This document shows positions 34,342-63,965 of a stretch of 64,000 bases of DNA, one piece after another. The position numbers and the translations under genes are program-made. Position 1 is the first letter of the stretch. Every line of letters begins with the position of its first letter. The notes under the pieces are model-generated. The model was not told the origin of the DNA, ran no database searches, and saw only the letters and a program-made list of their open reading frames with translations. The DNA comes from Escherichia coli phage Wa28: sequence record LC788710.1; one strand, written 5' to 3'.

Positions 34342-34355
34342 TGTAAAGTTTTGTA

Positions 34356-35087: not shown

Positions 35088-35193
35088 TGGAAAGGGCAAT
35101 TGTTAAAATGTTAACTTTTGTTTGTGGCGTGTCTAGTGCTGCAATGTTGATCACGCTAGTGATTATGATTATCCGTGACGCGAGGATCTTTTA

Positions 35194-35538
35194 ATGGTAA
35201 TTTATGAGGGCAATCGCTTTATTACTAATTGCCGTCCGGCATTATTAGCAAACTATTTAAATCAGCTTTCACCAGTTTATAAAGGCGTAGTTAATATCTA
35301 TGAGGGCAAAGCACATTATAAAATTTCTGCCGTTGTCGCCCGTGAACTAGCGTTTCAATTTTTAACTTTTGGGTCTTGTGACGTTCAGGTTATGGGGGAA
35401 GCGTTAATAGCGGAAAATGAAAATGAATTTATTGACATTTTCCGCAAAGTATGTACGGAGCGCCTGATTATGAAAGGCGCATATATTCAATCAACCGCTG
35501 AAAGTATTGAAACAGCGTTTCGAAAGGTGGCGCAATGA
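35194..35538 (+). CDS. hypothetical protein
   Basis: 114 aa ORF. Confidence 0.45.
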   Translation: MVIYEGNRFITNCRPALLANYLNQLSPVYKGVVNIYEGKAHYKISAVVARELAFQFLTFGSCDVQVMGEALIAENENEFIDIFRKVCTERLIMKGAYIQSTAESIETAFRKVAQ

Positions 35539-35735
35539 CTAAAGATGAAGCACTAGAAAAAATGAAACAAGGTTTCAAAGTTAGTAATCAATATTTTACT
35601 AGCGATGAATTTTTGTACATGAAAGAAAACGGCGTGATCATGTCAGAAGATGGTTACAATTTTAATGATTGGTTTTTCAATATTCGCAAGGGGGAGGAAT
35701 GGAAGCTAGACGGTTGGAGCGTTTACCGTGAATAG
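35535..35735 (+). CDS. hypothetical protein
   Basis: 66 aa; start overlaps previous stop (ATGA). Confidence 0.4.
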   Translation: MTKDEALEKMKQGFKVSNQYFTSDEFLYMKENGVIMSEDGYNFNDWFFNIRKGEEWKLDGWSVYRE

Positions 35736-35861
35736 CTGGTGGCGAAAAACACAAAGCCATAAATCTAATAATACCGCTGGGAAACATTCCCAGCGTTTAC
35801 GATTTGGTAATGGCTTTACAATGATATTGATAATCATTCTCATTCTAGGAGCGATGGCGTT

Positions 35862-36056
35862 ATGAGTGATAAAATTGTTGTAACTAAAACTACTGTTACC
35901 GTTGATACTTTCTTTGTGCCTGATACGCTGGAAAATCGGCAAGCGGTGGAGCGTGGCGATTATGATAAAGTGATTTATGATAACGATGGTTACTACCAAC
36001 ATTTGGTAGACTCCTACGGCGAAAGCGAAAAGATCACACATCGACTACCAGACTAA
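35862..36056 (+). CDS. hypothetical protein
   Basis: 64 aa; RBS TCTAGGAGCG. Confidence 0.4.
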   Translation: MSDKIVVTKTTVTVDTFFVPDTLENRQAVERGDYDKVIYDNDGYYQHLVDSYGESEKITHRLPD

Positions 36057-36179
36057 TAATAACGGGGCGCAACTATCTGCCCCCTTTTCTGGCCTCCTCC
36101 AATTTTGCCCTTATTAAAATACCTCCTCCAAAAATAAACGCGTTAGAATGCGTTACAGAGCGTTTAAAGGCTATATTAG

Positions 36180-36320
36180 ATTATTCTCCTACTGGAATAT
36201 ACTGTATATTTATACAGTAGAATAACCTGTTAATAAGTCTGTTGATAACGCCTCAAAATCGCTAGGATTTTGTCAAGTCAAATCATGCTGTTAATAAACC
36301 TGTGGATAACTTAAATAGCA
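36180..36320. repeat. right copy of inverted repeat with near-consensus LexA-box-like palindrome and DnaA boxes
   Basis: TACTGTATATTTATACAGTA at ~36196; TGTGGATAA at ~36301; reverse complement aligns to 32100-32220. Confidence 0.7.
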
Positions 36321-36480
36321 GTGTTTCTCACTTCCCTTTCTAAATGCGAATCATTATCATTATGCAACTCATTCGCATTCAATTCTGTAAATGATAACCA
36401 TTCTCATTCCACTTTCTAAACGCGAATCATTATCATTCGCATTCAACTTTTTAAATGAGAATCAATCTCATTATCATTCG
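36300..36480. repeat. AT-rich imperfect palindrome repeats (GCGAATCATTATCATTCGC family, about 4 copies)
   Basis: direct reading. Confidence 0.7.
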
Positions 36481-36521
36481 CATTTCGGCAGGCAGGGCAT
36501 TTTCATTTTGCCCTGCGCTTT

Positions 36522-37123
36522 TGTGCAAATCCGACATTGCTCCACGGGTGTTACGTGCGGGCGTGTATGTGCGAATCCGACAATTTTTGGTAGTGTGCAA
36601 ATCCGATGGGAAATATTTTTATAGTGTGCGAATCCGACAATGAATTTTCCTAAAAACTCCAGCAATCCGCAACTGCGATGCAATCCAGCTGGATTTACTA
36701 GAGTATGTGCAAATCCGACAAGTGTTAAGGTGTGCGAATCCGATAAGATTTTTGTGATTTCGATTGGAGGGTGTGTGATTGTGTGGGTTTGGGGAGAAGT
36801 TGAGAGAGTGAGAGAAAATAAGGGTAGAAACTGGAGTGGGCAGCATGGGTGGCGTGAAACGCCTGGTTTGCTGCGTTTTTGGGGATAATGCGGGATGTTT
36901 TGGCTAGAATTGAGATTAGGGGAGATAAAGCGAAATTTTATTAGCAAAATGGGGCAAAATCGCTTGACAAGTGAAAATTCCTGTGGCTCTAAAAAACTCA
37001 GGCAAATATGGGCCTTCGGCCCGAAATAATGCTGCTATTTTCAGTGTTCCTAAAAACTTTGGAGACTCCTATCAATGTGCAAATCCGACCATAAATTTCT
37101 AGAAACACAGTGTGCAAATCCGA
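36522..37123. repeat. direct repeat array of 14-15-mer GTGCRAATCCGAYA (about 9 copies, irregular 30-45 bp spacing); candidate injection-stop-signal-like region
   Basis: copies near 36522, 36568, 36595, 36626, 36706, 36731, 37077, 37110 plus a degenerate one near 36666. Confidence 0.75.
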
Positions 37124-37285
37124 TAGCAATTTCCAGAAATGTGTTTTGGAAAAATGTCTCCTAGAAATAACCGCCCTCCCTATAACCGCCCTGTATTAAA
37201 CCGCCTATTGCTGGAGTTTCTAGGAACATGAAAACCGCCTGAGTTGGCGAGAGTTTTCCTAGAAACTTAGGAGTCTACTAGAAAG
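37085..37285. repeat. palindromic TTYCTAGRAA motif, about 6 copies
   Basis: direct reading (tttctagaaac, ttccagaaatg, ctcctagaaat, tttctaggaac, ttcctagaaac, tactagaaag). Confidence 0.6.
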
Positions 37286-37587
37286 TGTTGTGCTATCCTA
37301 GCAGATGAGCGGCAACAGGTGTATCATCTTGAACATTAATTTATCTATTCAACAGTATTAGTTTTTATATAAGTATAAGATCCCCAGGGGATTGTGAGAG
37401 ATGCTCCACCCCTGGGATACGAATTGCGTGAGATGGTACAAAACTTCTGAAGATTTCCCTAGCCCTCCGACAAGCTACGGGGAAATAGAAGTTTCCCATC
37501 CACCATCCGTATCCGGGTGGATCTCTTTATTCTATGTTATTTCATAGAGTTATTATAACATGCAGAAATCATAACGTCAAGTAGAGT

Positions 37588-38478
37588 TTATTCATCGAAC
37601 ATGAGATTTCCTTTCATCCCCATCTCCGCATACTCCATGAGTTCTCCTAGGGATCTCACAGGGTAATCTACTTTACTGAAGTTATCATAGATCTTACATG
37701 AACTCTCGTACAACTCGTTAGGTATCTGCAATTTGTTATCAGTTAGCTTCTCATAACGTGTAGAAGATTTTGTACCTTCAAACAGAACTGCAATAACTGC
37801 GGCGATTTGTTTGGTAAGATCATCTGCTCCTAGAATTATTCTATTAATAGCAATCGTTACTTCATGCTTAGGTTTCACAGGTGGAAGGATAGGCTTGAGA
37901 TCCTTAGGTAAAGGTTCTGTTCCTAGGAATCCTTCTTTTGTGCGGAACCAATAATTATCTAGATCAGATATTGTCTTAGACTTATTCCATATAGTGAAGC
38001 AAGGTTTATTTCCTTCACGATCTCTGTATTCACGAACTGGAAGATAATGATCAGGGAATGAGTTGAGTGCATCATGCATTGGTGAGCCTGTCTTTTTAAA
38101 TGACAAACCGTACAACTCATTATAATTCATAACTTCATCTTCATAAACATGGAAATCTTTATATGCTGGAAGATTAAACCATTCCTGAAGTGAATGAACT
38201 GCAAAACGTTGTGCCCAAGCATGCATCACAAGAACTCTGTACTCTTTTACTTCATCTTTTGGAGAAGTACCTCTAACTGTTCTAGCTGACCGAATACAGA
38301 ACATCTCAACAACACGTCTCTCGTTTAAAGAAAGCTCAGAGTAACAACGTTCATGGCAACCTTCTAGCATTTCTAGAAGTTCACGTAGTTTCTCTACATC
38401 GACCGGTGGAAAAGGTCTCTCTTCCACCGCGAATTTACCAACTACACCTTTCGGCTTTCTATTACTATAAAATCCCAT
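37588..38478 (-). CDS. hypothetical protein
   Basis: 296 aa ORF. Confidence 0.45.
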   Translation of the reverse strand: MGFYSNRKPKGVVGKFAVEERPFPPVDVEKLRELLEMLEGCHERCYSELSLNERRVVEMFCIRSARTVRGTSPKDEVKEYRVLVMHAWAQRFAVHSLQEWFNLPAYKDFHVYEDEVMNYNELYGLSFKKTGSPMHDALNSFPDHYLPVREYRDREGNKPCFTIWNKSKTISDLDNYWFRTKEGFLGTEPLPKDLKPILPPVKPKHEVTIAINRIILGADDLTKQIAAVIAVLFEGTKSSTRYEKLTDNKLQIPNELYESSCKIYDNFSKVDYPVRSLGELMEYAEMGMKGNLMFDE

Positions 38479-39089
38479 TAACGACCTCTAGCCTTATCTG
38501 CATCAATAGCTTCGAATACTTTCGTTAACATTTCTTCAAGCTCACCTTCTTTGCTAGGATTGCTCAAACGAATAGTATATGAGTTCCTAGAAACTCCTGA
38601 GTCTTCTTGTGCTCCGCGATCTTTTGCAAAGCCCATCATTGCAACGCCAGCTTTATTCCACTCGTCTACGCTAGATGCTTCCCCAAATTTATATGATTGC
38701 GTATTGCTTACCACGCCACCACAAGGAACATTGTGCATATCCGACATTAATCTTTTATCGGAATTATTCAGCATTGCGATTGGTCCCGACTGCCACGGAT
38801 CTCGAATAGTCACTGGAGTACTCGGGCGGTTCACTTCAGTCTTCACGAGTTTGTATCCAGCATCGATTAGTGCATTAATCAGATTATCAGCCGGGATACG
38901 AGCCGTGCCAAAGATAGCACGAGCATTCATAAGCTTAGCCTGAAATTCCTTGCAACCTTGAAGATCAGTGTGCAAAAACGACAGTTGCATAGATTTAAAC
39001 TGTACTGTAGCAGTCAGATCTTTAAAGCTGTAATCCCATGTGTCGAGTTCATGATCTGCAACTACTTTAATGGTTTGTTGTGTAAACAT
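38478..39089 (-). CDS. hypothetical protein
   Basis: 203 aa ORF. Confidence 0.45.
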   Translation of the reverse strand: MFTQQTIKVVADHELDTWDYSFKDLTATVQFKSMQLSFLHTDLQGCKEFQAKLMNARAIFGTARIPADNLINALIDAGYKLVKTEVNRPSTPVTIRDPWQSGPIAMLNNSDKRLMSDMHNVPCGGVVSNTQSYKFGEASSVDEWNKAGVAMMGFAKDRGAQEDSGVSRNSYTIRLSNPSKEGELEEMLTKVFEAIDADKARGR

Positions 39090-55881: not shown

Positions 55882-55957
55882 TGGTAGTTAGTAGTGGATT
55901 TGAACCACTGTAGTCGCTCCGTATGAAGGAGGTGCATAACCACTCTGCCAACTAACT
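55882..55957 (-). tRNA. tRNA-Met/Ile2 (anticodon CAT)
   Basis: hand-folded cloverleaf; T-loop TTCAAAT; anticodon loop TTCATAC; CCA encoded. Confidence 0.6.
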
Positions 55958-55963
55958 ATAATT

Positions 55964-56039
55964 TGGTACTCCGACTTGGGATCGAACCAAGATTTGACGA
56001 TTATCGGTCGCCTGTTCTAACCGTTTGAACTATCGGAGC
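55964..56039 (-). tRNA. tRNA-Ile (anticodon GAT)
   Basis: cloverleaf; anticodon loop CCGATAA (C at position 33). Confidence 0.55.
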
Positions 56040-56040
56040 A

Positions 56041-56334
56041 TTACATCATTTCGTCTAAGTAAGAAGTATACTGGTATTTAGCTTCTCCAGTTTTATCTAC
56101 TTCGACTTCTGTTCTAGGTACTTTTCGTACCAGACCGTGAATCATCTTGTACTGAATAGACTTAGATGGTTCGTGATCTTTTGGAAATACTTGTTTAACC
56201 GTTACTACTTTGAAGCCTTCACGAGGTGTTAGCACAACAACTTGATCACCTTCTTTTATTTTCCAAGACTCAGGAAATTCGTAAGTGTAGCGTTGACCAC
56301 CCGTTTGGAACACGACAGAAAGATAACGTTTCAT
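56041..56334 (-). CDS. hypothetical protein
   Basis: 97 aa; promoter upstream. Confidence 0.4.
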   Translation of the reverse strand: MKRYLSVVFQTGGQRYTYEFPESWKIKEGDQVVVLTPREGFKVVTVKQVFPKDHEPSKSIQYKMIHGLVRKVPRTEVEVDKTGEAKYQYTSYLDEMM

Positions 56335-56363
56335 TTGGTTTCCCTCTCATTAATTTATGTAAA

Positions 56364-56392
56364 TATTATAACAAGAAATAAGAGAGAAGGCA
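56364..56392 (-). promoter_or_regulatory. T5-type sigma70 promoter (TTGCCT-17-TATAAT)
   Basis: conserved architecture. Confidence 0.55.
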
Positions 56393-56408
56393 AATGAATT
56401 TTTAAATT

Positions 56409-56483
56409 TGGTGCTCCCACCAGGAATCGAACCCGGTTCAGATGCTTACAAGGCAACTGCATCGCCAGCAATGCTTTAGGAGC
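56409..56483 (-). tRNA. tRNA-Thr (anticodon TGT)
   Basis: cloverleaf; anticodon loop CTTGTAA. Confidence 0.6.
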
Positions 56484-56650
56484 AATAAACCCGTTATTTC
56501 AACGGAATTTCTTTTTCAAATACAGGAGACTTATCAGACATTACTGTCATAGCCAACTGCTGTAGAAATTCGAATGAGAGTTTTAAACGTTCTTCACCCA
56601 ACTCAACCTCAACACACTTCATTTGCTTATCAACCTTTAGCTTTAGATTA

Positions 56651-56872
56651 TCAGCCCTCTTCGGGTTCTCTTTGCTCAGCTATTGCTAGCCAGTCTGGTA
56701 AAAGAAACTTAGTACGAAATTCTTCATATGTTTCTTCTGGATGAAAGCTATAGCCTTGCTTTTCATCATTTAATAAAACCGAACCGTCTTCCTGTTCATA
56801 AGCTCGGTATGTTTCACCAATAATTAAAACTCGTCTATTGGGGTTTTTATTACGAAACTCAAAAACGTCCAT
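56651..56872 (-). CDS. hypothetical protein
   Basis: 73 aa. Confidence 0.35.
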   Translation of the reverse strand: MDVFEFRNKNPNRRVLIIGETYRAYEQEDGSVLLNDEKQGYSFHPEETYEEFRTKFLLPDWLAIAEQREPEEG

Positions 56873-56887
56873 AACGTTTCCTTAAGT

Positions 56888-56962
56888 TGGTGCGGGATAC
56901 GAGAGTCGAACTCGTGTCTACTGGTTGGAAGCCAGTTATTCTAGCCACTGAACTAATCACGC
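56888..56962 (-). tRNA. tRNA-Gly (anticodon TCC)
   Basis: cloverleaf; anticodon loop CTTCCAA. Confidence 0.55.
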
Positions 56963-56968
56963 ATAAAT

Positions 56969-57044
56969 TGGCTGGAGAAGGAGGAATCGAACCTACCATT
57001 AACGGAGTCAAAGGCCGTTGTGCTAACCGTTACACTACTCTCCA
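56969..57044 (-). tRNA. tRNA-Gln (anticodon TTG)
   Basis: cloverleaf; anticodon loop CTTTGAC. Confidence 0.55.
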
Positions 57045-57050
57045 AGTATT

Positions 57051-57126
57051 TGGCTGGGATGCCACGGATCGAACGTGGAACCTTCGGAGTCAGAGGCCGA
57101 CGATCTGCCAATTGATCTACATCCCA
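57051..57126 (-). tRNA. tRNA-Gln (anticodon CTG)
   Basis: cloverleaf with perfect acceptor stem; anticodon loop CTCTGAC. Confidence 0.6.
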
Positions 57127-57133
57127 ATAATTT

Positions 57134-57334
57134 TTATTCTACAGGAACCGTGGCAATTGGATCTGGTTCTTCTAGACGTTTACCATTATGGTCAACACGA
57201 ATAATACCACAACCTTCACAGATTACAACAGCACCATAGCCTTCTTTAACTTCGGCTTCTGTAATCAGACCAGAAAGATCACCAGTATCTTTGCCCCACA
57301 TATCGATAGAGCATTCTTTGCAGAAATCAGCCAT
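57134..57334 (-). CDS. zinc-ribbon protein
   Basis: 66 aa; CKEC...CEGC. Confidence 0.35.
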   Translation of the reverse strand: MADFCKECSIDMWGKDTGDLSGLITEAEVKEGYGAVVICEGCGIIRVDHNGKRLEEPDPIATVPVE

Positions 57335-57358
57335 ATTTTAGTTCCTGTATAAGTTAAT

Positions 57359-57433
57359 TGGTGCATCCTCAGGGAATCGAACCCCGATCGTAAAGTTCGT
57401 AGCTTTACATTCTTTCCGTTGAAATAAGGACGC
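57359..57433 (-). tRNA. tRNA-Arg (anticodon ACG)
   Basis: cloverleaf; anticodon loop CTACGAA. Confidence 0.55.
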
Positions 57434-57438
57434 ATATT

Positions 57439-57515
57439 TGGGGTGGCTAGTGGAATTCGAATCCACATAGGCCTGATTCACAATCAGGATCATTAACCAA
57501 TTATGATATAGCCAC
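57439..57515 (-). tRNA. tRNA-His (anticodon GTG)
   Basis: cloverleaf; anticodon loop TTGTGAA; perfect acceptor. Confidence 0.65.
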
Positions 57516-57896
57516 AATTGAATACTATTAGGGGATGATCAGTCCTCCATTTGGCCGTCTAAGGTACCAAAGTTAGTCATTCTGCGCACAGGTTTTTCTC
57601 CTGATTCTTTATTGCGAATGCTCTCTAATAATACTCAATTGTGGCGGCTCTCCGAAACTCTTCTACTCTAGCCTTAGCAGCTTACTCCCGAACGCATGTC
57701 GGGAAAGTCTTACTAAGAACATCAAATAGCACCGTTACACTTTGAGCCATTAATGTATCAAGAAGCAGAAGGACTTGAACCTTCACGAGATAGACCATTT
57801 ATCTCAGCCTCGTTTTCGGGTATCTTATGAGGAGTGGATGTTCCCCTTACGCCCTTTAGGAAGCCCCGTCTACCGATTCCGGCATACTTCAAGATT

Positions 57897-57986
57897 TGGC
57901 AGAAGATAATGGAGTCGAACCATCACCGTATCACTACAGCGGGCCGGTTTTCAAGACCGGTTACGTACCACTACGTCCTATCTTCT
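57897..57986 (-). tRNA. tRNA-Ser (anticodon TGA), class II
   Basis: 90 nt; anticodon arm CCGGT-CTTGAAA-ACCGG; long variable arm. Confidence 0.6.
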
Positions 57987-58213
57987 AGTATTTGTTCTAC
58001 TTCTTTTCGAAGATCTTCTGGATTATCATGATAGGTTGTTTGCCATACATAAATAACTCCAGTATCACATGCTTTATCAAATATTTCTCGCTCAGGAAGT
58101 TTCATGCCCATTGCGTACTTGATATGAAACTCTAAAGCTTGCTTACTAGGGAATGTATGACGCAAGAAAAACTTATCATTAACTAAATCCAACATCATAA
58201 TCTTGACTTTCAT
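57971..58213 (-). CDS. hypothetical protein
   Basis: 80 aa; 3-prime end overlaps tRNA-Ser. Confidence 0.35.
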   Translation of the reverse strand: MKVKIMMLDLVNDKFFLRHTFPSKQALEFHIKYAMGMKLPEREIFDKACDTGVIYVWQTTYHDNPEDLRKEVEQILEDRT

Positions 58214-58233
58214 TTATATTCCCTATTAGTTGT

Positions 58234-58326
58234 TTGGCGGAAGAAGAGAGATTCGAACTCTCAAGCCTGCTTTAACAAGTCAGCCACTTTCCAAGCGGTT
58301 TTCGTCACCTAATCGATTTGCTCTTC
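58234..58326 (-). tRNA. tRNA-Ser (anticodon GGA), class II
   Basis: 93 nt; T-arm GAGAG-TTCGAAT-CTCTC; anticodon loop TTGGAAA; fold less certain. Confidence 0.45.
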
Positions 58327-58501
58327 CGTAGATCTCAGGATTAAATCATAAACTTCATTAGCAGATACTGGAAGTATGAGATTATACATCTTTTGGTCAT
58401 ACCTCTGACCATACTCTATAAACACATACTCTTTAGTTAATGTATTAACAGCTAACCAGATATCAGTTATAGGAGTTTTCATCATGAGTTAATCCAATGT
58501 T

Positions 58502-58582
58502 TGGTAGGGATGGAGGGACTCGAACCCACACCCGAAGACTAGAACCTAAATCTAGCGCGTCTGCCAATTTCGCCACATCCCC
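58502..58582 (-). tRNA. tRNA-Leu (anticodon TAG), class II
   Basis: 81 nt; anticodon arm CTAGA-TTTAGGT-TCTAG. Confidence 0.55.
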
Positions 58583-58589
58583 ATTTTAT

Positions 58590-58808
58590 TTAGTTAGAAA
58601 TAAATAGTAACCCTGCAACAATGGAACCTATGCCACTGAATACCATTATCAGCATAGCTTCTAAGCTGATAAAGCGGACGTTATATGGAGCGCCCCAAGA
58701 ATAATCAGTAAAGAAAGTTTTCTTTTCTTTAGCTAAATCTTTAATAGTTCTAAAATAGATAGCTAGTGCTAAAGCTACAAGAACTACAGAGGCTGCTAAG
58801 AATACCAT
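58590..58808 (-). CDS. small membrane protein
   Basis: 72 aa, two TM helices. Confidence 0.35.
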   Translation of the reverse strand: MVFLAASVVLVALALAIYFRTIKDLAKEKKTFFTDYSWGAPYNVRFISLEAMLIMVFSGIGSIVAGLLFISN

Positions 58809-58827
58809 ATTATTTCCTTAATTTGTT

Positions 58828-58903
58828 TGGTGGAGTCACTCAGAATTGAACTGAGTTCCACTGCTTGCAAGGCAGTAAGTTTAACCAAATAACCTATGAC
58901 CCC
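58828..58903 (-). tRNA. tRNA-Ala (anticodon TGC)
   Basis: cloverleaf; G3:U70 wobble; anticodon loop CTTGCAA. Confidence 0.65.
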
Positions 58904-58908
58904 GAATT

Positions 58909-58987
58909 TGGTGGAGAATAAGAGATTCGAACTCTTCTGATATCCTCGGTGCAAGCGAGGTGTCCACTCCAAGCAGACCCATTCCCC
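58909..58987 (-). tRNA. tRNA-Ala-like (anticodon TGC), atypical
   Basis: 79 nt; G3:U70; anticodon loop CTTGCAC; G8G9 and 7-nt variable loop are non-canonical. Confidence 0.45.
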
Positions 58988-58996
58988 AAAATCTTT

Positions 58997-59225
58997 AAGT
59001 TTACTAAGGCTATTAGCTCGGTGTGCGTATTACCCTCAGACATTAGCCAGTAGAGGATAACCGCTCTTCACAAACCCGATACACTATTCAGTTGCCGCTG
59101 AATCTAGTGGACTAATCTAGAACTTATTGCAAAGTATCCCCCGCCATTAAGGGTCTACTTGCAATTGTGCTTTTTGGCAGCCAGTCCTAGGTCGAGCTAA
59201 TACCTTAGTGAACTTTGATGAGGAT
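58997..59225 (-). ncRNA. candidate structured RNA (~230 nt) closed by a ~24-bp terminal helix
   Basis: 58997-59022 pairs with 59200-59225 (2 mismatches); no ORF; promoter at 59250-59278 fires into it; leader hairpin GATGAGGA-gaaa-TCCTCATC. Confidence 0.35.
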
Positions 59226-59249
59226 TTCTCCTCATCAATTTATATAAAT

Positions 59250-59278
59250 ATTATAACAAGAAATTAAGCATCAAGCAA
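59250..59278 (-). promoter_or_regulatory. T5-type sigma70 promoter (TTGCTT-17-TATAAT) driving structured RNA and downstream tRNAs
   Basis: conserved architecture; -35 overlaps stop of upstream ORF. Confidence 0.6.
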
Positions 59279-59630
59279 GTACATTTTTAGCGATTTCTTG
59301 TATTTCCTTAACGTCACTAACGAAAAGGTAATCAGAGCTTCCAGAGTGCATACTCTGCATAACCACACCATCCTCTGGTGCATCTTCTTTCAAAGTAATA
59401 CCTAACCAGAACTCGGCAAAACTAGGTGTTACCTCACCTTGACTTGCCTTGAATACATCGGCTTCTGTGATCTCCTGACCAGTAGAGAGTCCCATGTACG
59501 GTACGTTCAGATCAATATCTTTGTAAAACTCAGCTAGATCTTGTTCGAAGTCCCAACCTTTAGAGATAGCGAACTCCATTGTTACATGACCGAAATAGCC
59601 TTGAACCTTGCTTGATAATTGCATTTGCAA
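59271..59630 (-). CDS. hypothetical acidic protein
   Basis: 119 aa. Confidence 0.4.
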   Translation of the reverse strand: MQMQLSSKVQGYFGHVTMEFAISKGWDFEQDLAEFYKDIDLNVPYMGLSTGQEITEADVFKASQGEVTPSFAEFWLGITLKEDAPEDGVVMQSMHSGSSDYLFVSDVKEIQEIAKNVLA

Positions 59631-59648
59631 TTCCTTATTTTGAGTTAA

Positions 59649-59722
59649 TTGGTACTCGGTGATAGAATCGAACTATCGCAACCGCCGTGTAAAGACGGGG
59701 TTCTCCCATTAAACTAACCGAG
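59649..59722 (-). tRNA. tRNA-Val (anticodon TAC)
   Basis: cloverleaf; anticodon loop TTTACAC. Confidence 0.55.
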
Positions 59723-59726
59723 CAAT

Positions 59727-59804
59727 TTGGTGGATTGCCTGGGATTCGAACCCAGAACTGACGGATTAAAGGTCCGCTACTCTTATCCGGTTGAGCTAGC
59801 AATC
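59727..59804 (-). tRNA. tRNA-Lys (anticodon TTT), C33 variant
   Basis: cloverleaf with perfect acceptor; anticodon loop CCTTTAA. Confidence 0.5.
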
Positions 59805-60269
59805 CAATTTTTCTACTAATAATTTAAAAGCATCTAGTACAGGTACTTCAAACCATTCCCCGGATACTCTGTAGTCTTTGAGAAGATTATGTAACTCTTT
59901 CTCCGTACGTCTTTTATCTGACGAAAATCTGAAATGGTGTAGCTTGTAGTCTCTATTAGGTGAATAGGTTTGATAACTTGCTAACCTCTCATTTACATCT
60001 ATAGTCATACCTATTTTATACATGCCTGGCCATGCGGGATTACCGATTACATATACAAAACCTTCCGTTATAGGTATTTTATGTTCTCTTTTGTATTTTA
60101 AGAGATTTAAAGCTGCCATTCGATAACAGAATTTAAATTCTGAAGTTTTTAACTTACCCTCTTTACCAGAAATTTCATTATATTTGCTCATATAAGCTCT
60201 TATAAGCTTATCATCTATAATAAAATTATCAGGAAGGTTTAAGGCAGCTAAAACTTTATTAATTAGCAT
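59796..60269 (-). CDS. T5orf172-domain (GIY-YIG-like) putative homing endonuclease
   Basis: 157 aa; VYVIGNPAWPGMYKIGMT...YQTYSP motif; paralog of 63369-63860. Confidence 0.55.
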   Translation of the reverse strand: MLINKVLAALNLPDNFIIDDKLIRAYMSKYNEISGKEGKLKTSEFKFCYRMAALNLLKYKREHKIPITEGFVYVIGNPAWPGMYKIGMTIDVNERLASYQTYSPNRDYKLHHFRFSSDKRRTEKELHNLLKDYRVSGEWFEVPVLDAFKLLVEKLDC

Positions 60270-60444
60270 AAACTTCCTTAATAGAGTAGACTTTCAAGTA
60301 AGGATGATTAATACCAAATTCCGCCATTACTTCATTTTCATCTTTACCATAATGGGCTAGTGGATACTTCTTACGATCTTTACTAGAACGTAAATCACTT
60401 ACTTTTAAACGAAATAATTTCATTTCGAAATCCTTCTATTAAAT

Positions 60445-60522
60445 TGGAAGCGGGTGCAGGAATCGAACCTACCTCTTTCTAGCTTATGAGACTAGCGATC
60501 TCTACCAGAGATCTAACCCGCA
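60445..60522 (-). tRNA. tRNA with CAT anticodon (Met/fMet/Ile2), 1:72 mismatch
   Basis: cloverleaf; anticodon loop CTCATAA; unpaired first acceptor pair. Confidence 0.5.
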
Positions 60523-60528
60523 ATTGTT

Positions 60529-60606
60529 TGGTCTCCGTGGGAGGATTTGAACCCCCGACCCTATCGCCCCAAACGAAACGCTCTAGCCAAACTGAGCTAC
60601 ACGGAG
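60529..60606 (-). tRNA. tRNA-Pro (anticodon TGG)
   Basis: cloverleaf; perfect acceptor; anticodon loop TTTGGGG (G37). Confidence 0.6.
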
Positions 60607-60638
60607 AATATTCTTTGTTAACTCACTTTATAAAATAT

Positions 60639-60667
60639 ATTATACAGAGAATTAAGCTAAATAGCAA
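60639..60667 (-). promoter_or_regulatory. T5-type sigma70 promoter (TTGCTA-17-TATAAT) upstream of tRNA-Pro
   Basis: conserved architecture. Confidence 0.6.
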
Positions 60668-60921
60668 CTACATTTTTTAATAAATTTACTTATTGCGTAG
60701 GCCACCTGGAGGGTTCAAGCCCCACGGCTGACAAAGAAGTTTGCGAGACTTCTCTTAAACGCCAGAATAGACCCGCCGATCTATCGGAACCTACTCAATA
60801 AGTAAACTTTCGTTTACCTACACCTACCTGGTCGGGAGGATTTTCAGCGACTAGAACCGGCCGGAAACTCATCGCCTTGTTTATCTAGGAGTCCGTTCTC
60901 TAGGAAGCAGAAACCTAAATT

Positions 60922-60995
60922 TGGTGCGGTCGGAGGGAATCGAACCCTCAACTTCTGGTTGGCAACCAAAAATTATACCTTTTAACTACGAACGC
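60922..60995 (-). tRNA. tRNA-Gly (anticodon GCC)
   Basis: cloverleaf; anticodon loop TTGCCAA. Confidence 0.55.
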
Positions 60996-61005
60996 ATAAT
61001 AAGTC

Positions 61006-61126
61006 AATCTAGGCAGGACTTGAACCTGCTATCACTTGTGCGGATTTACGAGAACCATTCTTTCACTCGAATCGAACGAGCTTCTACCCTCGGCAAGCTG
61101 GTGTCCCCTCTCCACCACGCTAGAAT
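61006..61126 (-). other. tRNA-like element (~121 nt) with perfect T-arm but no standard cloverleaf
   Basis: T-arm GCAGG-TTCAAGT-CCTGC at 61013-61029; acceptor-like pairing only to 61120-61126. Confidence 0.25.
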
Positions 61127-61208
61127 GATAATTAGTGCCTGCTCCTTTGAATCAAGAAGTCCACCCCGGACTTTGGGTCTTTGCAGTACATCACGCTGCT
61201 CTGATGTT

Positions 61209-61285
61209 TGGTACACCCACTAGGACTTGAACCTAGAACCTACCGCTTAAGAGGCGGTAGCTCTAACCAATTGAGCTATGGATGT
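61209..61285 (-). tRNA. tRNA-Lys (anticodon CTT)
   Basis: cloverleaf; D-arm GCTCAATTGGTTAGAGC; anticodon arm ACCGC-CTCTTAA-GCGGT. Confidence 0.65.
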
Positions 61286-61291
61286 ATAATT

Positions 61292-61366
61292 TGGCGGTAC
61301 TAAGGGTAATCGAAACCCTACCTCTCCCGTGACAGGGGAGTATCCTAACCGTTAGACTATAGTACC
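61292..61366 (-). tRNA. tRNA-Asp (anticodon GTC)
   Basis: cloverleaf; anticodon arm CTCCC-CTGTCAC-GGGAG; perfect acceptor. Confidence 0.65.
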
Positions 61367-61938
61367 TTTAACTTTTTAAGTTCTTTAGGATTGCCTCCTA
61401 AAGAAGTGTATCTTTTACGCAACCCATTATCTGAATAACTTAACTTTCTCCCTGCACCTGACCAGCCTAGCTCTCTTACTGTAACCTCGATTATTTCTTT
61501 AGTTATAGAGATATCTTTTGGTTTATGTGAAGAGCACTCCTGACATTTTTCAGCTTTTAAAGAAATAGCTTTACCACAATCCTTACAACAATTATCATGG
61601 TTTAGTTTACTAAATCCTTTATCTTTTAAAGTCTTTTCTAGATGCTGCTCTTTTGTGAGCACTTGTAAGTTATTAAGACCCCAATAAGTAATGTCTGTGT
61701 TAATATGGTCAACTTCTAGTTCAGAGTCTAGACTTGGTAATTTCTTAAATGCACATGCTAAAATCCTATGTACACCGGTATTTCTCTGTTGACCATTTTT
61801 ATGGAGACGTATAGATAAGTATCCGTAATTACTGGTTATTTGGGTTAGTATTTTGTTTGATTTGATACTAAATACTAACCCATCCAAACTTACTAAGTAC
61901 TCCTCAAACCCTGGAATGGGTAAGGATATTCCGTGCAT
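61357..61938 (-). CDS. HNH homing endonuclease
   Basis: 193 aa; GVHRILA...EVDHIN...NNLQVLTKEQH HNH motif plus C-terminal Cys cluster. Confidence 0.6.
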   Translation of the reverse strand: MHGISLPIPGFEEYLVSLDGLVFSIKSNKILTQITSNYGYLSIRLHKNGQQRNTGVHRILACAFKKLPSLDSELEVDHINTDITYWGLNNLQVLTKEQHLEKTLKDKGFSKLNHDNCCKDCGKAISLKAEKCQECSSHKPKDISITKEIIEVTVRELGWSGAGRKLSYSDNGLRKRYTSLGGNPKELKKLKVL

Positions 61939-61941
61939 AAT

Positions 61942-62127
61942 TTACTCAGTTTTGAGTTTTTCGATAGCTTCCTCAACCTCTTTTAGAGCTTCACGACGCT
62001 CTACTTGACCTTGAAGTTCTTCAAGAAGTTCAGCTTTCAGAGCCTTAATAATATTACCACGAACCTTAATATTATTAATCAGATTATCACGATCAGCTTC
62101 TAGTCGAGCAATTGCACGAGTTGTCAT
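61942..62127 (-). CDS. small coiled-coil protein
   Basis: 61 aa. Confidence 0.3.
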   Translation of the reverse strand: MTTRAIARLEADRDNLINNIKVRGNIIKALKAELLEELQGQVERREALKEVEEAIEKLKTE

Positions 62128-62230
62128 ATCTATTTCCTCAGTTGTTAATGAAAAATGGTATCTGTGACTGAATTCGATATCAGCAATGATAGCTGGTTGG
62201 CTACCGGTTTACTTAACTCTACACAGAATA

Positions 62231-62313
62231 TGGCGGGCCGTGTAGGATTCGAACCTACGTTGTCTTTCGACATGGATTAACAGTCCACCGCCAAACCGCT
62301 TGGCTAACGACCC
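62231..62313 (-). tRNA. tRNA-Asn (anticodon GTT) with unusually long 13-nt variable arm
   Basis: 83 nt; anticodon arm GGACTGTTAATCC; extra arm GTC-gaaa-GAC. Confidence 0.55.
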
Positions 62314-62320
62314 TAAAATT

Positions 62321-62396
62321 TGGACGACCGCATGAGATTCGAACTCACATAAGGAGGTTTTGCAGGCCTCCGCCTAAGCCATTCAGCCAACGGTCG
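62321..62396 (-). tRNA. tRNA-Cys (anticodon GCA)
   Basis: cloverleaf; anticodon loop CTGCAAA. Confidence 0.6.
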
Positions 62397-62574
62397 ATTT
62401 ATCTTGCTTTTCGAGATTAGTAAACTCTAGATCTTTAGAATGTCCTATAGATCTAGCATAATAGCCATCTCCAGCATCGTAGCCTGATTTACCGCACTCA
62501 CACATCTTAAACTCTCTATAATGAGTGAAAATATGTTCAGAACCACAACACTTAAATTTAACTAACATTTTCAT
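62383..62574 (-). CDS. small zinc-ribbon protein
   Basis: 63 aa; CCGSEH...CECGKS. Confidence 0.3.
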   Translation of the reverse strand: MKMLVKFKCCGSEHIFTHYREFKMCECGKSGYDAGDGYYARSIGHSKDLEFTNLEKQDKSTVG

Positions 62575-62813
62575 TTAACACGCTCCGGTAAATCTTCGAG
62601 TTTATATTGAGTAGCCACATTAGCAGCATCTAGTAACAAACCCATATGTTTAAGAATCCTAGTGATAGCCTCGCCTTCTGCTTCTTCTACAAAAGTGCGT
62701 AGTTGAATGAAGTCAATACCCCCATCCATACCAGAGAAAATGTTTAGTAAGCGAAGCATTACCAGCTTACGTTCTTTCAATTCTTGTTCTGTCATGTTGC
62801 TTCTCCAGTTCAA
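62571..62813 (-). CDS. hypothetical protein
   Basis: 80 aa; promoter upstream. Confidence 0.35.
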   Translation of the reverse strand: MNWRSNMTEQELKERKLVMLRLLNIFSGMDGGIDFIQLRTFVEEAEGEAITRILKHMGLLLDAANVATQYKLEDLPERVK

Positions 62814-62824
62814 TTTATGTAATA

Positions 62825-62853
62825 ATTATACAGAACTTTAAGCGGTTAAGCAA
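62825..62853 (-). promoter_or_regulatory. T5-type sigma70 promoter (TTGCTT-17-TATAAT)
   Basis: conserved architecture. Confidence 0.6.
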
Positions 62854-63124
62854 CTACATTTTTTAAGAATTTGATGCCTTTCTTTTTCTTCTTATATTTC
62901 CACGTTAACGGGTTCTGTCGATTATGAACGCTTGAGATCTTTGTCTCGTCAAAGTTCTTCAAAACCATGTAATCACAGGCCAACTGTTCTAGTGGGATGT
63001 GATCTCCATCAAAAGCATAAACATAAGGCTGTTGACTAGCACGATAATGATAGACTTTGTTAATTCTGCGTTTCAGTGACTTATCCGCACAGTAAATAAA
63101 GAAGTTTTCAGGATGCATCAGCAT
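62846..63124 (-). CDS. hypothetical protein
   Basis: 92 aa. Confidence 0.35.
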   Translation of the reverse strand: MLMHPENFFIYCADKSLKRRINKVYHYRASQQPYVYAFDGDHIPLEQLACDYMVLKNFDETKISSVHNRQNPLTWKYKKKKKGIKFLKNVVA

Positions 63125-63135
63125 CTCCTTAAAAT

Positions 63136-63210
63136 TGGTGCACCCTGTTCGTATCGAACGAACCTCTCAAGCTCTTCAGGCAAGCGCTAATCCATCTCAG
63201 CTAAAGGTGC
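63136..63210 (-). tRNA. tRNA-Phe (anticodon GAA), weak anticodon stem
   Basis: cloverleaf; anticodon loop CTGAAGA; two U-U mismatches in anticodon stem. Confidence 0.45.
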
Positions 63211-63216
63211 AAATAT

Positions 63217-63293
63217 TGGCAAACCTACTAGGACTCGAACCTAGACCGTACGGTTTTGGAGACCGACATGCTGTCCAGTAACACTCTAGGAAT
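63217..63293 (-). tRNA. tRNA-Trp (anticodon CCA), mismatched acceptor
   Basis: anticodon loop CTCCAAA and T-loop TTCGAGT as in enterobacterial tRNA-Trp; two U-U mismatches in acceptor. Confidence 0.45.
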
Positions 63294-63301
63294 GCAGAAA
63301 T

Positions 63302-63378
63302 TGGCGTCCTGTGCGGGGATCGAACCCGCAAACCCCACCTTGAAAGGGTGGTGACTTTACCAGTTTGTCTAACAGGAC
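63302..63378 (-). tRNA. tRNA-Glu (anticodon TTC)
   Basis: perfect acceptor; anticodon arm CCACC-CTTTCAA-GGTGG. Confidence 0.65.
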
Positions 63379-63860
63379 TTAAATTGTTTATTGGATAGAT
63401 TGTTAAACTCGGAAAGTATGTCGTCTACACTTCTGTCTAACACTACCCATTCATTAAGCCGTTCAGGAAAGCTATTATGAAGCATTTTCTCCGCTTCTCT
63501 AGCATTAAACCAAAATGACCAATGTATTAACTTATAATCACGTAAGGGAGAATAAGTTTGGTAATTTCCTAATCTTGTTTTAGGATCAGAAGACATACCA
63601 ATTTTTACATAGTTATCCCACGCTGGGTTAGTTATTGCATAAATAAAACCACAGCTGGATTTTTCTCCAATACTTTTGTTATACTTGATAAAAGATAGGG
63701 CAGATAACTTCAAGCTATATCGACGATTACTATCGCGACCAAAGTTAGCTGTACCAAATGTGAGGCTTTCTAATATTAGATCTTTGTTTATATCGGCGGG
63801 TGAACCCAACTGTATAATACCTCTATTTGCAGCTTCTTGAATTATCCGATCAATATACAT
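63369..63860 (-). CDS. T5orf172-domain (GIY-YIG-like) putative homing endonuclease
   Basis: 163 aa; FIYAITNPAWDNYVKIGMS...YQTYSP motif; paralog of 59796-60269. Confidence 0.55.
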   Translation of the reverse strand: MYIDRIIQEAANRGIIQLGSPADINKDLILESLTFGTANFGRDSNRRYSLKLSALSFIKYNKSIGEKSSCGFIYAITNPAWDNYVKIGMSSDPKTRLGNYQTYSPLRDYKLIHWSFWFNAREAEKMLHNSFPERLNEWVVLDRSVDDILSEFNNLSNKQFKSC

Positions 63861-63877
63861 ATCCTTTACCTTTAATT

Positions 63878-63965
63878 TGGTGGGCGTTAATGGAGTCGAA
63901 CCACTCGAGTCGCAATGACCAGGGATTTACAATCCCCTCCGCTACCACTTACGGAATAAACGCCC
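63878..63965 (-). tRNA. tRNA-Tyr (anticodon GTA), class II
   Basis: 88 nt; perfect acceptor; anticodon loop TTGTAAA. Confidence 0.6.

What the first reader, a model, noticed from the sequence alone, without database searches (positions are those of the whole stretch)
61006..61126. Orphan T-arm hairpins and a 121-nt tRNA-like element without a standard cloverleaf
A perfect T-arm (GCAGG-TTCAAGT-CCTGC, minus-strand sense) at 61013-61029 has acceptor-like complementarity only to a segment ~110 nt away, with an internal second T-arm-like hairpin (GCTCG-TTCGATT-CGAGT). A second orphan T-arm (GAAGG-TTCAAGT-CCTTC) lies at 57776-57792 with no partner acceptor strand. These could be decaying tRNA genes, tRNAs with insertions, or tRNA-mimicking structures such as processing signals or decoys.
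Basis: seen in the sequence. Interest (0 to 1): 0.5.

Follow-up and report, generated by a model that had tools for sequence, protein, structure and literature searches.

The report
Phage T5 tRNA-like stable RNAs
The "orphan T-arms" belong to two real, conserved non-coding RNAs built on complete tRNA bodies whose anticodon loops are replaced by structured inserts; they are the counterparts of the already annotated phage T5 stable RNAs RNA2 and RNA1, and their function is still unknown.

Summary
The window is a T5-like phage (Epseptimavirus) with 25 co-oriented tRNA genes. The 121-nt element at 61006-61126 (minus strand) is real. It is the ortholog (89.6% identity) of T5 'rna2', annotated in GenBank AY543070 as 'tRNA-like stable RNA with unknown functions'. 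The second T-arm lies at 57768-57784, 8 nt from the stated position. It does have an acceptor partner and belongs to the ortholog of T5 'rna1'.

Neither element is a decaying tRNA. RNA2 belongs to a family of at least 77 distinct sequences in phage tRNA arrays: T5-like phages, Acinetobacter T4-like phages and many uncultured large phages. All six helices covary (94% of cells paired against 61% in shuffles). The body is a full tRNA with acceptor, D and T arms, an anticodon stem and a 15-48-like pair.

The 7-nt anticodon loop is replaced by an invariant core: GGGY paired to RUCC, a GUAA bulge, a G-C-closed helix and an unpaired GCA. This core is capped by a second T-loop hairpin or, in minimal members, by a GAAA loop. 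RNA1 is a class-II (Leu-like) tRNA body with a different insert and was found only in T5-like phages. Neither encodes CCA, although all 25 tRNAs in the window do.

The most likely reading is tRNA-scaffolded RNAs that act in trans. The partner is unknown. The element itself is already known; the family-wide anatomy may be new.

The parts
61006..61126 (-). RNA2 ortholog, acceptor stem to acceptor stem. Discriminator G is at 61005. The region homologous to the annotated T5 rna2 is 61003-61127.
   Evidence: blastn to T5 rna2 (AY543070 32959-33083): 89.6% over 125 nt. CM R1 scores 99.5 bits, E 7e-25, while ordinary tRNAs in the window score 41.7 bits or less.
61120..61126 (-). RNA2 acceptor stem, 5' strand AUUCUAG. 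Pairs with 61006-61012 (CUAGAUU), with a U2-U71 mismatch in this phage.
   Evidence: Sequence. All 7 acceptor pairs have changes on both sides, 91% of cells paired across 77 sequences.
61099..61117 (-). RNA2 D-arm UGGUG-GAGAGGGGA-CACCA, with GG in the loop.
   Evidence: Window UGGUG/CACCA against T5 UGGUU/AACCA is compensatory. D stem 94% paired, all 4 pairs covary. A 15-48-like pair covaries, GC 17 and AU 11.
61094..61098 (-). RNA2 anticodon stem, 5' strand GCUUG. Pairs with CAAGU at 61034-61038.
   Evidence: Helix 3: 5 pairs, all with changes on both sides, 96.8% paired.
61039..61093 (-). RNA2 insert replacing the 7-nt anticodon loop. Order: J5 CCGA (61090-61093); Pa 5' GGGU (61086-61089); A (61085); Pc G-A (61083-61084); inner T-loop hairpin (61065-61081); GAAAGAAUGGUUC; Pc 3' U-C (61050-61051); GUAA bulge (61046-61049); Pa 3' AUCC (61042-61045); J3 GCA (61039-61041).
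   Evidence: Invariant in 77 of 77: GGG, G55, CGUAA, UCC, GCA. Pa fourth pair: UA 33, CG 22, UU 22. Pc second pair is paired in 70 of 77, with AU 27, UA 23, GC 13, CG 4, UG 3.
61065..61081 (-). Inner T-arm-like hairpin GCUCG-UUCGAUU-CGAGU inside the insert.
   Evidence: Helix 5: 4 of 5 pairs with changes on both sides. It is replaced by a GAAA-type loop in the minimal members L104 and L130.
61013..61029 (-). RNA2 T-arm GCAGG-UUCAAGU-CCUGC.
   Evidence: Sequence. Helix 6: 97.6% paired.
57761..57891 (-). RNA1 ortholog, acceptor to acceptor. The region homologous to the annotated T5 rna1 is 57749-57893. It is a class-II (Leu-like) tRNA body with an insert of about 47 nt in place of the anticodon loop.
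   Evidence: blastn to T5 rna1 (AY543070 30501-30644): 80.7%. Structure on 26 distinct sequences: 95.8% paired, 11 pairs with changes on both sides, slid registers 40-51%.
57768..57784 (-). RNA1 T-arm GAAGG-UUCAAGU-CCUUC.
57812..57859 (-). RNA1 insert: helix GGG/CCC (57851-57854 with 57818-57821) and a hairpin at 57828-57847 whose loop ACAUCCAC (57834-57841) is conserved.
   Evidence: Hairpin stem pairs 48-65 and 49-64 change on both sides in 12 and 10 sequences. The loop is invariant apart from one A/G position.
57787..57805 (-). RNA1 long variable arm GAGAUA-AAUGGUC-UAUCUC.
   Evidence: 100% paired, one pair AU to UA in 3 sequences.

Best explanation
The element at 61006-61126 is the Epseptimavirus ortholog of phage T5 RNA2. 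The element around the second T-arm is the ortholog of T5 RNA1. Both are stable non-coding RNAs built on complete tRNA bodies.

Shown here: they lie inside a co-oriented array of tRNA genes with no promoter-like or terminator-like site of their own between the flanking tRNAs. They keep covarying acceptor, D, anticodon and T stems. In RNA2 a 15-48-like tertiary pair also covaries. The 7-nt anticodon loop is replaced by a conserved structured insert. Unlike all 25 genuine tRNAs of this genome, they do not encode CCA.

Inferred: they are transcribed with the tRNAs and cut out by the tRNA-processing enzymes (RNase P at the 5' end, 3' trimming). The tRNA body gives folding, processing and stability, like the engineered 'tRNA scaffold' used to express recombinant RNAs. 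They cannot decode codons.

For RNA2 the working part is the invariant irregular helix that extends the anticodon arm: an internal loop with unpaired GCA, a 4-bp helix GGGY/RUCC with an invariant G-U pair, a GUAA bulge opposite a single A or U, and a G-C-closed helix. It is capped by a second T-loop hairpin plus a GG strand or, in minimal members, by a GAAA loop.

My best guess is that this arm is presented in trans to a widely conserved host or defence factor that normally reads tRNA anticodon arms. RNA2 would then act as a mimic, decoy or inhibitor rather than as an adaptor. The scaffold reading is well supported. The decoy step is inference, and I put it at about 0.25 on its own.
For: - Identity: 89.6% and 80.7% identity to T5 rna2 and rna1. 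Both are annotated 'tRNA-like stable RNA with unknown functions' in AY543070 and as misc_RNA in AY692264.
- Conservation: 424 and 492 phage records carry RNA2 and RNA1 homologs. There are 77 distinct RNA2-family sequences from IMG/VR and metagenomes, scoring 47.7-113 bits with model R1, against 47.3 bits or less for ordinary tRNAs.
- Structure: 94.1% of cells paired against 61.2% in shuffles; covariation score 0.784 against 0.179, reached by 0 of 500 shuffles; slid registers 31-49%. RNAalifold finds the same helices independently. The extra helix Pc is supported by mutual information and pair counts. A Levitt-like 15-48 pair covaries. RNA1: 95.8% paired, 11 compensatory pairs.
- Not decoders: ARAGORN and Rfam give no tRNA call, even at E up to 10. 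All 25 window tRNAs encode CCA, RNA1 and RNA2 do not, and only 4 of 77 family members have CCA at that position.
- Context: member loci hold 637 same-strand and 0 opposite-strand tRNAs, a median of 5 tRNAs within 2 kb, and 24 members lie within 20 nt of a tRNA. Between tRNA-Lys and tRNA-Gly around RNA2 there is no promoter-like site and no terminator-like site on the strand that encodes it.
- The core occurs only in tRNA bodies. A core-only pattern search gave coding-sequence chance hits plus two further tRNA-embedded members.
- No conserved neighbouring protein, which points to a host-encoded or unlinked partner.
Against: - No expression data for this phage were available. 'Stable RNA' rests on the GenBank notes for T5; I could not read the primary papers.
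- No partner is identified.
- Thermodynamic folding of the single sequence is no better than shuffles (z -0.07 and -0.52).
- The T5 tRNA region is dispensable in laboratory hosts: the T5Mos deletion 30661-38625 spans rna2 (PMC11464382), and the region is a deletion hotspot (PMC12483538). Any function is therefore conditional.
- The test for specific mimicry of one tRNA's anticodon arm was inconclusive.
Confidence: 0.6

Rival explanations
1. Cis-acting element only. The tRNA-like bodies would serve as RNase P / RNase E punctuation marks or stabilisers for the polycistronic tRNA transcript, and the excised RNA would have no function of its own.
For: They sit 5-10 nt from flanking tRNAs inside one transcription unit. 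The region is dispensable in the laboratory.
Against: A punctuation mark needs only an acceptor/T-arm minihelix. Here the most constrained part is the insert, with 15 invariant nucleotides across very different phages. The T5 orthologs are annotated as stable RNAs.
Confidence: 0.15
2. A small-molecule-binding or catalytic RNA (aptamer or small ribozyme) carried on a tRNA scaffold. The invariant internal loops would form a pocket rather than a protein-binding surface.
For: Invariant unpaired nucleotides (GUAA, GCA, an invariant G-U pair) flanked by covarying helices are typical of ligand pockets and active sites. There is no linked protein partner.
Against: No Rfam ribozyme or riboswitch family matches, even at E up to 10. 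There is no expression platform. Minimal members have a core of only about 27 nt.
Confidence: 0.12
3. Intron-containing tRNA genes. The insert would be removed and a functional tRNA produced.
For: The insert sits exactly in the anticodon loop of an otherwise complete tRNA. ARAGORN reads one minimal member (L104) as tRNA-Pro(ggg).
Against: - Removing the domain enclosed by helix Pa leaves J5 + GCA, which has C or A at position 33 and C at position 37 instead of U33 and a purine.
- No group I intron match, and the insert of 27-60 nt is far too small for one.
- The loop geometry (3-4 x 3 and 1 x 4) is not a bulge-helix-bulge, and the enterobacterial hosts have no splicing endonuclease (established knowledge).
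- No CCA is encoded, although all 25 real tRNAs encode it.
- T5 annotates the full-length 125-nt species as the stable RNA.
Confidence: 0.04
4. Decaying tRNA pseudogenes or chance hairpins.
For: tRNA finders do not recognise them. This phage's RNA2 has a U-U mismatch in the acceptor stem, and RNA1 has a U1-U72 mismatch.
Against: They are conserved in hundreds of phages, with compensatory changes in every helix and an invariant insert. The T-loop motif count is 19 against 0.33 expected.
Confidence: 0.02

Closest known systems
Phage T5 RNA2 and RNA1 (misc_RNA rna2, rna1 in GenBank AY543070 and AY692264; 'tRNA-like stable RNA with unknown functions')
   Same: Orthologs. Identity is 89.6% and 80.7% over the full length. 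The order within the tRNA cluster is the same: RNA2 is followed by the rnaIV homolog, and RNA1 by the rnaI homolog.
   Different: This phage has tRNA-Lys(CUU) upstream of RNA2 and tRNA-Gly(GCC) between RNA2 and the rnaIV homolog. Its RNA2 acceptor stem has a U-U mismatch. No rnaIII homolog was found.
Phage T4 species 1 and species 2 RNAs (rnaC, rnaD; 'small, stable RNA' in NC_000866)
   Same: Stable RNAs of unknown function encoded at the end of a phage tRNA cluster. rnaC ends in a T-arm plus an acceptor-like stem.
   Different: Not homologous. Model R1 gives only 19.5 bits on rnaC, from the T-arm alone, and T4 lacks the GGGY...CGUAA.UCCGCA core. A true RNA2 family member does exist in the T4-like Acinetobacter phage 133.
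Engineered 'tRNA scaffold' for recombinant RNA expression in E. coli (approach referred to in PMC3753655; details from my own knowledge of Ponchon and Dardel)
   Same: A foreign structured RNA replaces the anticodon loop of a tRNA. The body provides processing by tRNA enzymes and resistance to nucleases.
   Different: That design is man-made. Here the arrangement is natural, ancient and under purifying selection.
Bacterial Y RNA YrlA and the tmRNA tRNA-like domain (own knowledge)
   Same: Non-decoding RNAs that reuse the tRNA elbow (T-loop/D-loop) and are handled by tRNA enzymes.
   Different: - YrlA has its 5'/3' ends in the Ro-binding stem, not in the acceptor stem.
- tmRNA has a tag reading frame and pseudoknots.
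- No Rfam match to either family, and ARAGORN reports no tmRNA.

Membership tests
Canonical tRNA (Rfam RF00005 / ARAGORN) | Acceptor, D and T arms with a T-loop consensus and the tertiary 15-48 pair | tested here: met
   All stems covary. The T-loop is UUCAAGU. A 15-48-like pair covaries in the RNA2 family.
Canonical tRNA (Rfam RF00005 / ARAGORN) | Seven-nucleotide anticodon loop with U33 and a purine at 37; detection above the family threshold | tested here: not met
   The loop is replaced by a 55-nt (RNA2) or roughly 47-nt (RNA1) insert. There is no RF00005 hit even at E up to 10, and no ARAGORN call.
Canonical tRNA (Rfam RF00005 / ARAGORN) | Encoded 3' CCA, as in every tRNA gene of this genome | tested here: not met
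   25 of 25 tRNAs end in CCA. After the discriminator, RNA2 has ACU and RNA1 has GAU. Only 4 of 77 family members have CCA.
T5 stable tRNA-like RNAs RNA2 / RNA1 | Full-length sequence homology to the annotated T5 genes | tested here: met
   89.6% over 125 nt and 80.7% over 145 nt.
T5 stable tRNA-like RNAs RNA2 / RNA1 | Same position in the tRNA gene cluster, same strand as the tRNAs | tested here: met
   The rnaIV and rnaI homologs follow RNA2 and RNA1 respectively, as in T5.
T5 stable tRNA-like RNAs RNA2 / RNA1 | Accumulation as a discrete stable RNA in infected cells | not testable with these tools
   Rests on the GenBank notes for T5. No transcriptome data were available.
Intron-containing tRNA (group I or bulge-helix-bulge type) | Group I catalytic core, or two 3-nt bulges separated by a 4-bp helix | tested here: not met
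   No group I match. The covariation-supported loops are 3-4 x 3 and 1 x 4, not bulges.
Intron-containing tRNA (group I or bulge-helix-bulge type) | Excision leaves a canonical anticodon loop | tested here: not met
   J5 + GCA gives C or A at position 33 and C at position 37.
tmRNA | tRNA-like domain plus a tag reading frame | tested here: not met
   ARAGORN reports no tmRNA, and there are no Rfam tmRNA hits.
T4 rnaC / rnaD | Sequence or structure homology | tested here: not met
   R1 gives 19.5 bits on rnaC and no hit on rnaD.
tRNA pseudogene | Relaxed constraint: no conservation of the insert and no compensatory changes | tested here: not met

The most novel reading that the evidence does not exclude
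The RNA2 family would be a widespread, phage-encoded RNA counter-measure. A tRNA body delivers an invariant anticodon-arm mimic that traps or blocks a factor targeting tRNA anticodon arms, for example an anticodon nuclease of a defence or toxin system. The exposed bulge reads G-U-A-A, which is the tyrosine anticodon plus A37, preceded by C (a YGU context). It sits on a GGG/UCC stem like that of the phage's own tRNA-Tyr. This would be a new class of RNA anti-defence element hiding in phage tRNA arrays. It would also give a function to T5 stable RNAs that GenBank still lists as of unknown function.
Probability: 0.15. Interest if true: 0.8.

Novelty: already known. Interest (0 to 1): 0.45.

Why it matters
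Large phages carry tRNA arrays, and recent work shows that T5 tRNAs rescue infection from tRNA-cleaving defence systems (PARIS; PMC11464382). RNA2 and RNA1 sit in the same arrays, and the GenBank records for T5 give them no function. This analysis shows that RNA2 is not a T5 curiosity. It is one member of a deeply conserved family of tRNA-scaffolded RNAs with a small invariant core, found in unrelated large phages and absent from Rfam 15. That gives a precise set of nucleotides to mutate and a bait for pull-downs. It also warns annotators that such genes are missed, or misread as odd tRNAs, by tRNA finders. If the core proves to be a mimic of a tRNA anticodon arm, it would add an RNA layer to phage counter-defence.

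Tried and rejected
- Single-sequence folding. The MFE is no better than shuffles and does not recover the covarying structure, so it is uninformative.
- Rfam at the gathering threshold and at E up to 10. Nothing matches either element.
- Literature search. No paper in the library describes these RNAs. Only the GenBank notes and papers on deletions of the T5 tRNA region were found. The Glukhov 2018 paper is not held.
- Conserved neighbouring proteins in 57 non-T5 loci. The best cluster occurs in only 6 loci and is a homing endonuclease by eye.
- RNA1 relatives outside T5-like phages. The pattern AACATCCRC...T-arm gave chance hits plus T5-like sequences only.
- Core-only pattern. Nearly all hits were chance matches in coding sequence, and the only two real members were tRNA-embedded.
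- BLAST of a minimal arm against E. coli genomes. No match, but this is uninformative at that database size.
- Mimicry of a specific tRNA. GUAA.UCCGC is closest to the 3' half of the tRNA-Tyr anticodon arm (two exact matches among 26 phage tRNA-Tyr). Without the anticodon triplet, however, the flanks are no more Tyr-like than Lys-, Thr- or Trp-like. I kept this only as a lead.
- Alternative register for helix Pc. It is worse, 65% against 78% paired.
- Resemblances seen by eye to the 23S rRNA GTPase-associated centre (UAGAAGC, AAAGAA, CGUAAU), the hammerhead ribozyme, the k-turn and the T-box UGGN bulge. I dropped these because the matching letters are not conserved across the family.
- Homology to T4 rnaC. 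Rejected.

Full report
**What the window is.**
ARAGORN finds 25 tRNA genes, all on the minus strand between 55.9 and 64.0 kb. Rfam confirms 23 of them at gathering threshold. The stretch 60400-62400 is 100% identical to Salmonella phage bux and E. coli phage Shin27. Bux is classified in Demerecviridae, genus Epseptimavirus, so the window comes from a T5-like phage. The finding lies in the tRNA cluster of that phage.

**Checking the observation.**
- On the minus strand the first element reads: AUUCUAG CG UGGUG-GAGAGGGGA-CACCA GCUUG [insert] CAAGU GAUA GCAGG-UUCAAGU-CCUGC CUAGAUU G.
- The second T-arm is real but lies at 57784-57768, 8 nt from the stated coordinates.
- The T-loop motif GGTTCRANYCC occurs 19 times in the window against 0.33 expected from shuffles. 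Apart from tRNAs, the hits are these two elements and one plus-strand match at 60712-60722.
- Neither element is called by ARAGORN or by Rfam, even at E up to 10.

**Identity.**
The 136-nt query around the first element matches 424 phage records, including T5. The T5 record AY543070 annotates the matching stretch (32959-33083) as misc_RNA rna2, 'tRNA-like stable RNA with unknown functions'. It annotates 30501-30644 as rna1 with the same note, and AY692264 carries the same features.

Direct comparison places the window counterparts as follows:
- rna2 at 61003-61127, 89.6% identity.
- rna1 at 57749-57893, 80.7% identity.
- rnaIV at 60694-60794.
- rnaI at 57642-57748.
- rna2H (partial) at 59068-59202.
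- rna3 at 62156-62228.
- No rnaIII homolog.

Both 'orphan T-arms' therefore belong to orthologs of already annotated T5 stable RNAs.

**RNA2 is one member of a large family.**
Besides T5-like phages, BLAST picked up the T4-like Acinetobacter phage 133, where the match lies unannotated between tRNA-Gly and tRNA-Cys. I searched with a pattern taken from the conserved 3' part, CGTAANTCCGCA followed after 8-14 nt by GGTTYRANNCC. The results were:
- 49 IMG/VR loci, including contigs of 164-363 kb.
- About 50 family members among 93 or more metagenome loci.
- Only one member among 24 hits in the bacterial and archaeal genome collection. The other hits were coding sequence or variable arms of tRNA-Ser.

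A covariance model built from 34 diverse sequences scores 77 distinct members at 47.7-113 bits; the window element scores 99.5 bits. Ordinary tRNAs in the same loci reach 47.3 bits at most. T4 itself has no member. Among cultured phages the carriers are Demerecviridae and about 14 Acinetobacter phages, including the T4-like phage 133.

**Structure of RNA2.**
- On the 77-sequence alignment the six helices are paired in 94.1% of cells, against 61.2% in shuffles.
- The covariation score is 0.784 against 0.179, and none of 500 shuffles reaches it. Slid registers give 31-49%.
- Acceptor (7 bp), D stem (4 bp), anticodon stem (5 bp), inner hairpin (5 bp) and T stem all show changes on both sides.
- RNAalifold recovers the same helices on its own.
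- A mutual-information scan on 53 sequences below 88% identity added one more pair (columns 56-165: TA 20, GC 11, AT 9, CG 4). It also showed a covarying 15-48-like pair (GC 17, AU 11), a hallmark of the tRNA L-shape.
- Pair counts confirm the extra helix Pc: G55-C166 is invariant, and 56-165 is paired in 70 of 77 sequences. An alternative register does worse.

**The resulting anatomy.**
RNA2 is a complete tRNA body whose anticodon stem is followed, going outward, by five parts:
1. An internal loop with 3-4 variable nucleotides on the 5' side and invariant GCA on the 3' side.
2. Helix Pa, GGGY/RUCC, with an invariant G-U pair and a Y:R pair that is U-A in 33, C-G in 22 and U-U in 22 sequences.
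3. One A or U opposite an invariant GUAA.
4. Helix Pc.
5. A cap.

In most members the cap is a second T-loop hairpin followed by a strand with a conserved (A/U)GG. By analogy with D-loop G18-G19 this may form a second 'elbow'; that is inference. In the minimal members L104 and L130 the cap is just C-GAAA-G or A-GAAA-U. Other members carry larger caps (L087, L107, L138, L020, L157). A search for the core alone found it in no other context. It returned only chance matches in coding sequence and two more tRNA-embedded members.

**RNA1.**
RNA1 has 492 homologs, all in T5-like phages. A motif search outside them found nothing convincing. On 26 distinct sequences my structure is 95.8% paired, with 11 pairs changed on both sides and slid registers at 40-51%. 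Its parts are:
- An acceptor stem with a conserved U1-U72 mismatch.
- A 3-bp D stem with the loop GAAUCGGUAGA, typical of class-II (Leu-type) tRNAs.
- A 5-bp anticodon stem: GCUUC/GAGGC here, ACUGC/GCGGU in T5.
- A 6-bp variable arm and the T-arm.
- An insert of about 47 nt in place of the anticodon loop. It contains a short helix and a hairpin whose 8-nt loop ACAUCCAC is conserved.

RNA1 is a second, unrelated insert on the same kind of scaffold.

**Not tRNAs, not pseudogenes, not spliced tRNAs.**
- All 25 tRNAs of the window encode CCA. RNA2 is followed by G-ACU and RNA1 by U-GAU. Only 4 of 77 family members have CCA at that position.
- If the Pa-enclosed domain were excised, the remaining loop (J5 + GCA) would have C or A at position 33 and C at position 37.
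- There is no group I intron signal.
- The loops are not a bulge-helix-bulge.
- The T5 records annotate the full-length 125-nt and 144-nt species as the stable RNAs.
- Decay is excluded by the covariation and by the invariance of the insert.

**Context and biogenesis.**
In the loci of the 77 members ARAGORN finds 637 tRNAs on the same strand and none on the opposite strand. The median is 5 tRNAs within 2 kb, and 24 members lie within 20 nt of a tRNA. In the window RNA2 ends 10 nt before tRNA-Gly(GCC), and RNA1 starts 5 nt after the CCA of tRNA-Ser(UGA). The only strong promoter-like site on the minus strand near RNA2 lies downstream of the rnaIV homolog, at 60667-60639, and no minus-strand terminator-like site lies next to RNA2; the one such site in the RNA1 region (57784-57768) is the RNA1 T-arm itself. 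I infer co-transcription with the tRNAs and release by tRNA-processing enzymes. This is not shown.

**Function.**
- No protein family is shared by the neighbourhoods; the best cluster is present in 6 of 57 non-T5 loci. Any partner is therefore likely a host factor or an unlinked gene.
- The T5 tRNA region is dispensable in laboratory E. coli, so the function is conditional. The same is true of the T5 tRNA-Lys that neutralises PARIS (PMC11464382).
- The invariant bulge reads G-U-A-A, which is the tyrosine anticodon followed by A37. Together with the preceding C it can also be read as C-G-U-A-A, which matches positions 34-38 of a tRNA-Thr(CGU) loop.
- Among 933 distinct phage tRNAs, the 3' strand GUAA.UCCGC is closest to tRNA-Tyr, with two exact matches. 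Once the anticodon triplet is set aside, the flanks are no more Tyr-like than Lys-, Thr- or Trp-like. Specific mimicry remains a lead, not a result.
- My best reading is a tRNA-scaffolded RNA that acts in trans and presents an anticodon-arm-like surface to a conserved tRNA-reading factor, as a decoy or inhibitor.
- The rivals are a purely cis-acting processing element, and an aptamer or ribozyme.

**Comparison with what is known, and novelty.**
The element itself is already known: its T5 ortholog is annotated, with unknown function. It works like the engineered tRNA scaffold and is analogous, but not homologous, to T4 species 1 RNA. It is not a YrlA, a tmRNA or an intron-bearing tRNA. I found three things nowhere in the searchable literature or in Rfam 15: the family-wide distribution of RNA2, its covariation-supported architecture, and its small invariant core.

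**Verdict.**
The feature is real and ordinary in the sense of being an annotated gene class of T5-like phages. It is not a decaying tRNA. Its function is unknown but now sharply testable.

Noticed in passing
window 62156-62228 (-): A 97% homolog of T5 rna3 ('putative tRNA-like RNA'), lying 3 nt downstream of tRNA-Asn. The T5 sequence is 73 nt and ends in ACCA. Neither ARAGORN nor Rfam calls it.
   Followed up: partly
window 57642-57748, 60694-60794, 59068-59202 (-): Homologs of the other T5 stable RNAs of unknown function: rnaI (90.7%), rnaIV (94%) and part of rna2H (78%). No rnaIII homolog was found. In T5, rnaI, rnaIII and rnaIV all have pairing 5'/3' ends, and rnaI ends in GCCA.
   Followed up: partly
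window 60712-60722 (+): A T-loop-like motif GGTTCAAGCCC on the plus strand, antisense to the rnaIV homolog. It is the only one of the 19 motif hits that is not on the tRNA strand.
   Followed up: no
window 55882-63965 (-): All 25 tRNA genes encode the 3' CCA, and it is always followed by A or T.
   Followed up: yes
L134:5111-5225(+), L012:8798-8910(+), L113:1608-1708(-): Other phage loci hold further tRNA-like genes with large inserts that are not RNA2-type. L134 has an inner T-loop hairpin plus AAUUGGU but lacks the GGGY/CGUAA core. L012 is a 113-nt tRNA-like gene. L113 is a tRNA-Cys-like gene with an AT-rich insert of about 27 nt just after the GCA anticodon, which looks intron-like. Insert-bearing tRNA scaffolds may be a wider phenomenon in phage tRNA arrays.
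   Followed up: no
L104:713-805(-), L076:7053-7127(-): ARAGORN reads the minimal RNA2-family member in L104 as 'tRNA-Pro(ggg)', taking the invariant GGG as an anticodon. It also calls a 'tRNA-Pyl(cta)' next to the L076 member. Family members can therefore be mis-annotated as unusual tRNAs.
   Followed up: partly
window 58239-58327 (-) and 58909-58987 (-): A weak tRNA-Sec-model hit (23.8 bits, far below threshold) lies where T5 has its second tRNA-Ser(GGA), which BLAST does not find here. The second tRNA-Ala(UGC) copy is 79 nt and scores only 38 bits, against 59.6 bits for its neighbour.
   Followed up: no
L104, L009, L046, L095, L161; L038, L050, L134: Judged by eye only, small ORFs near RNA2-family members include a GatB/YqeY-like protein, a protein with a GGQ motif (like a release factor or ArfB) and an HD-domain protein. 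These are translation-related genes clustered with phage tRNA arrays. They were not checked against profile libraries.
   Followed up: no
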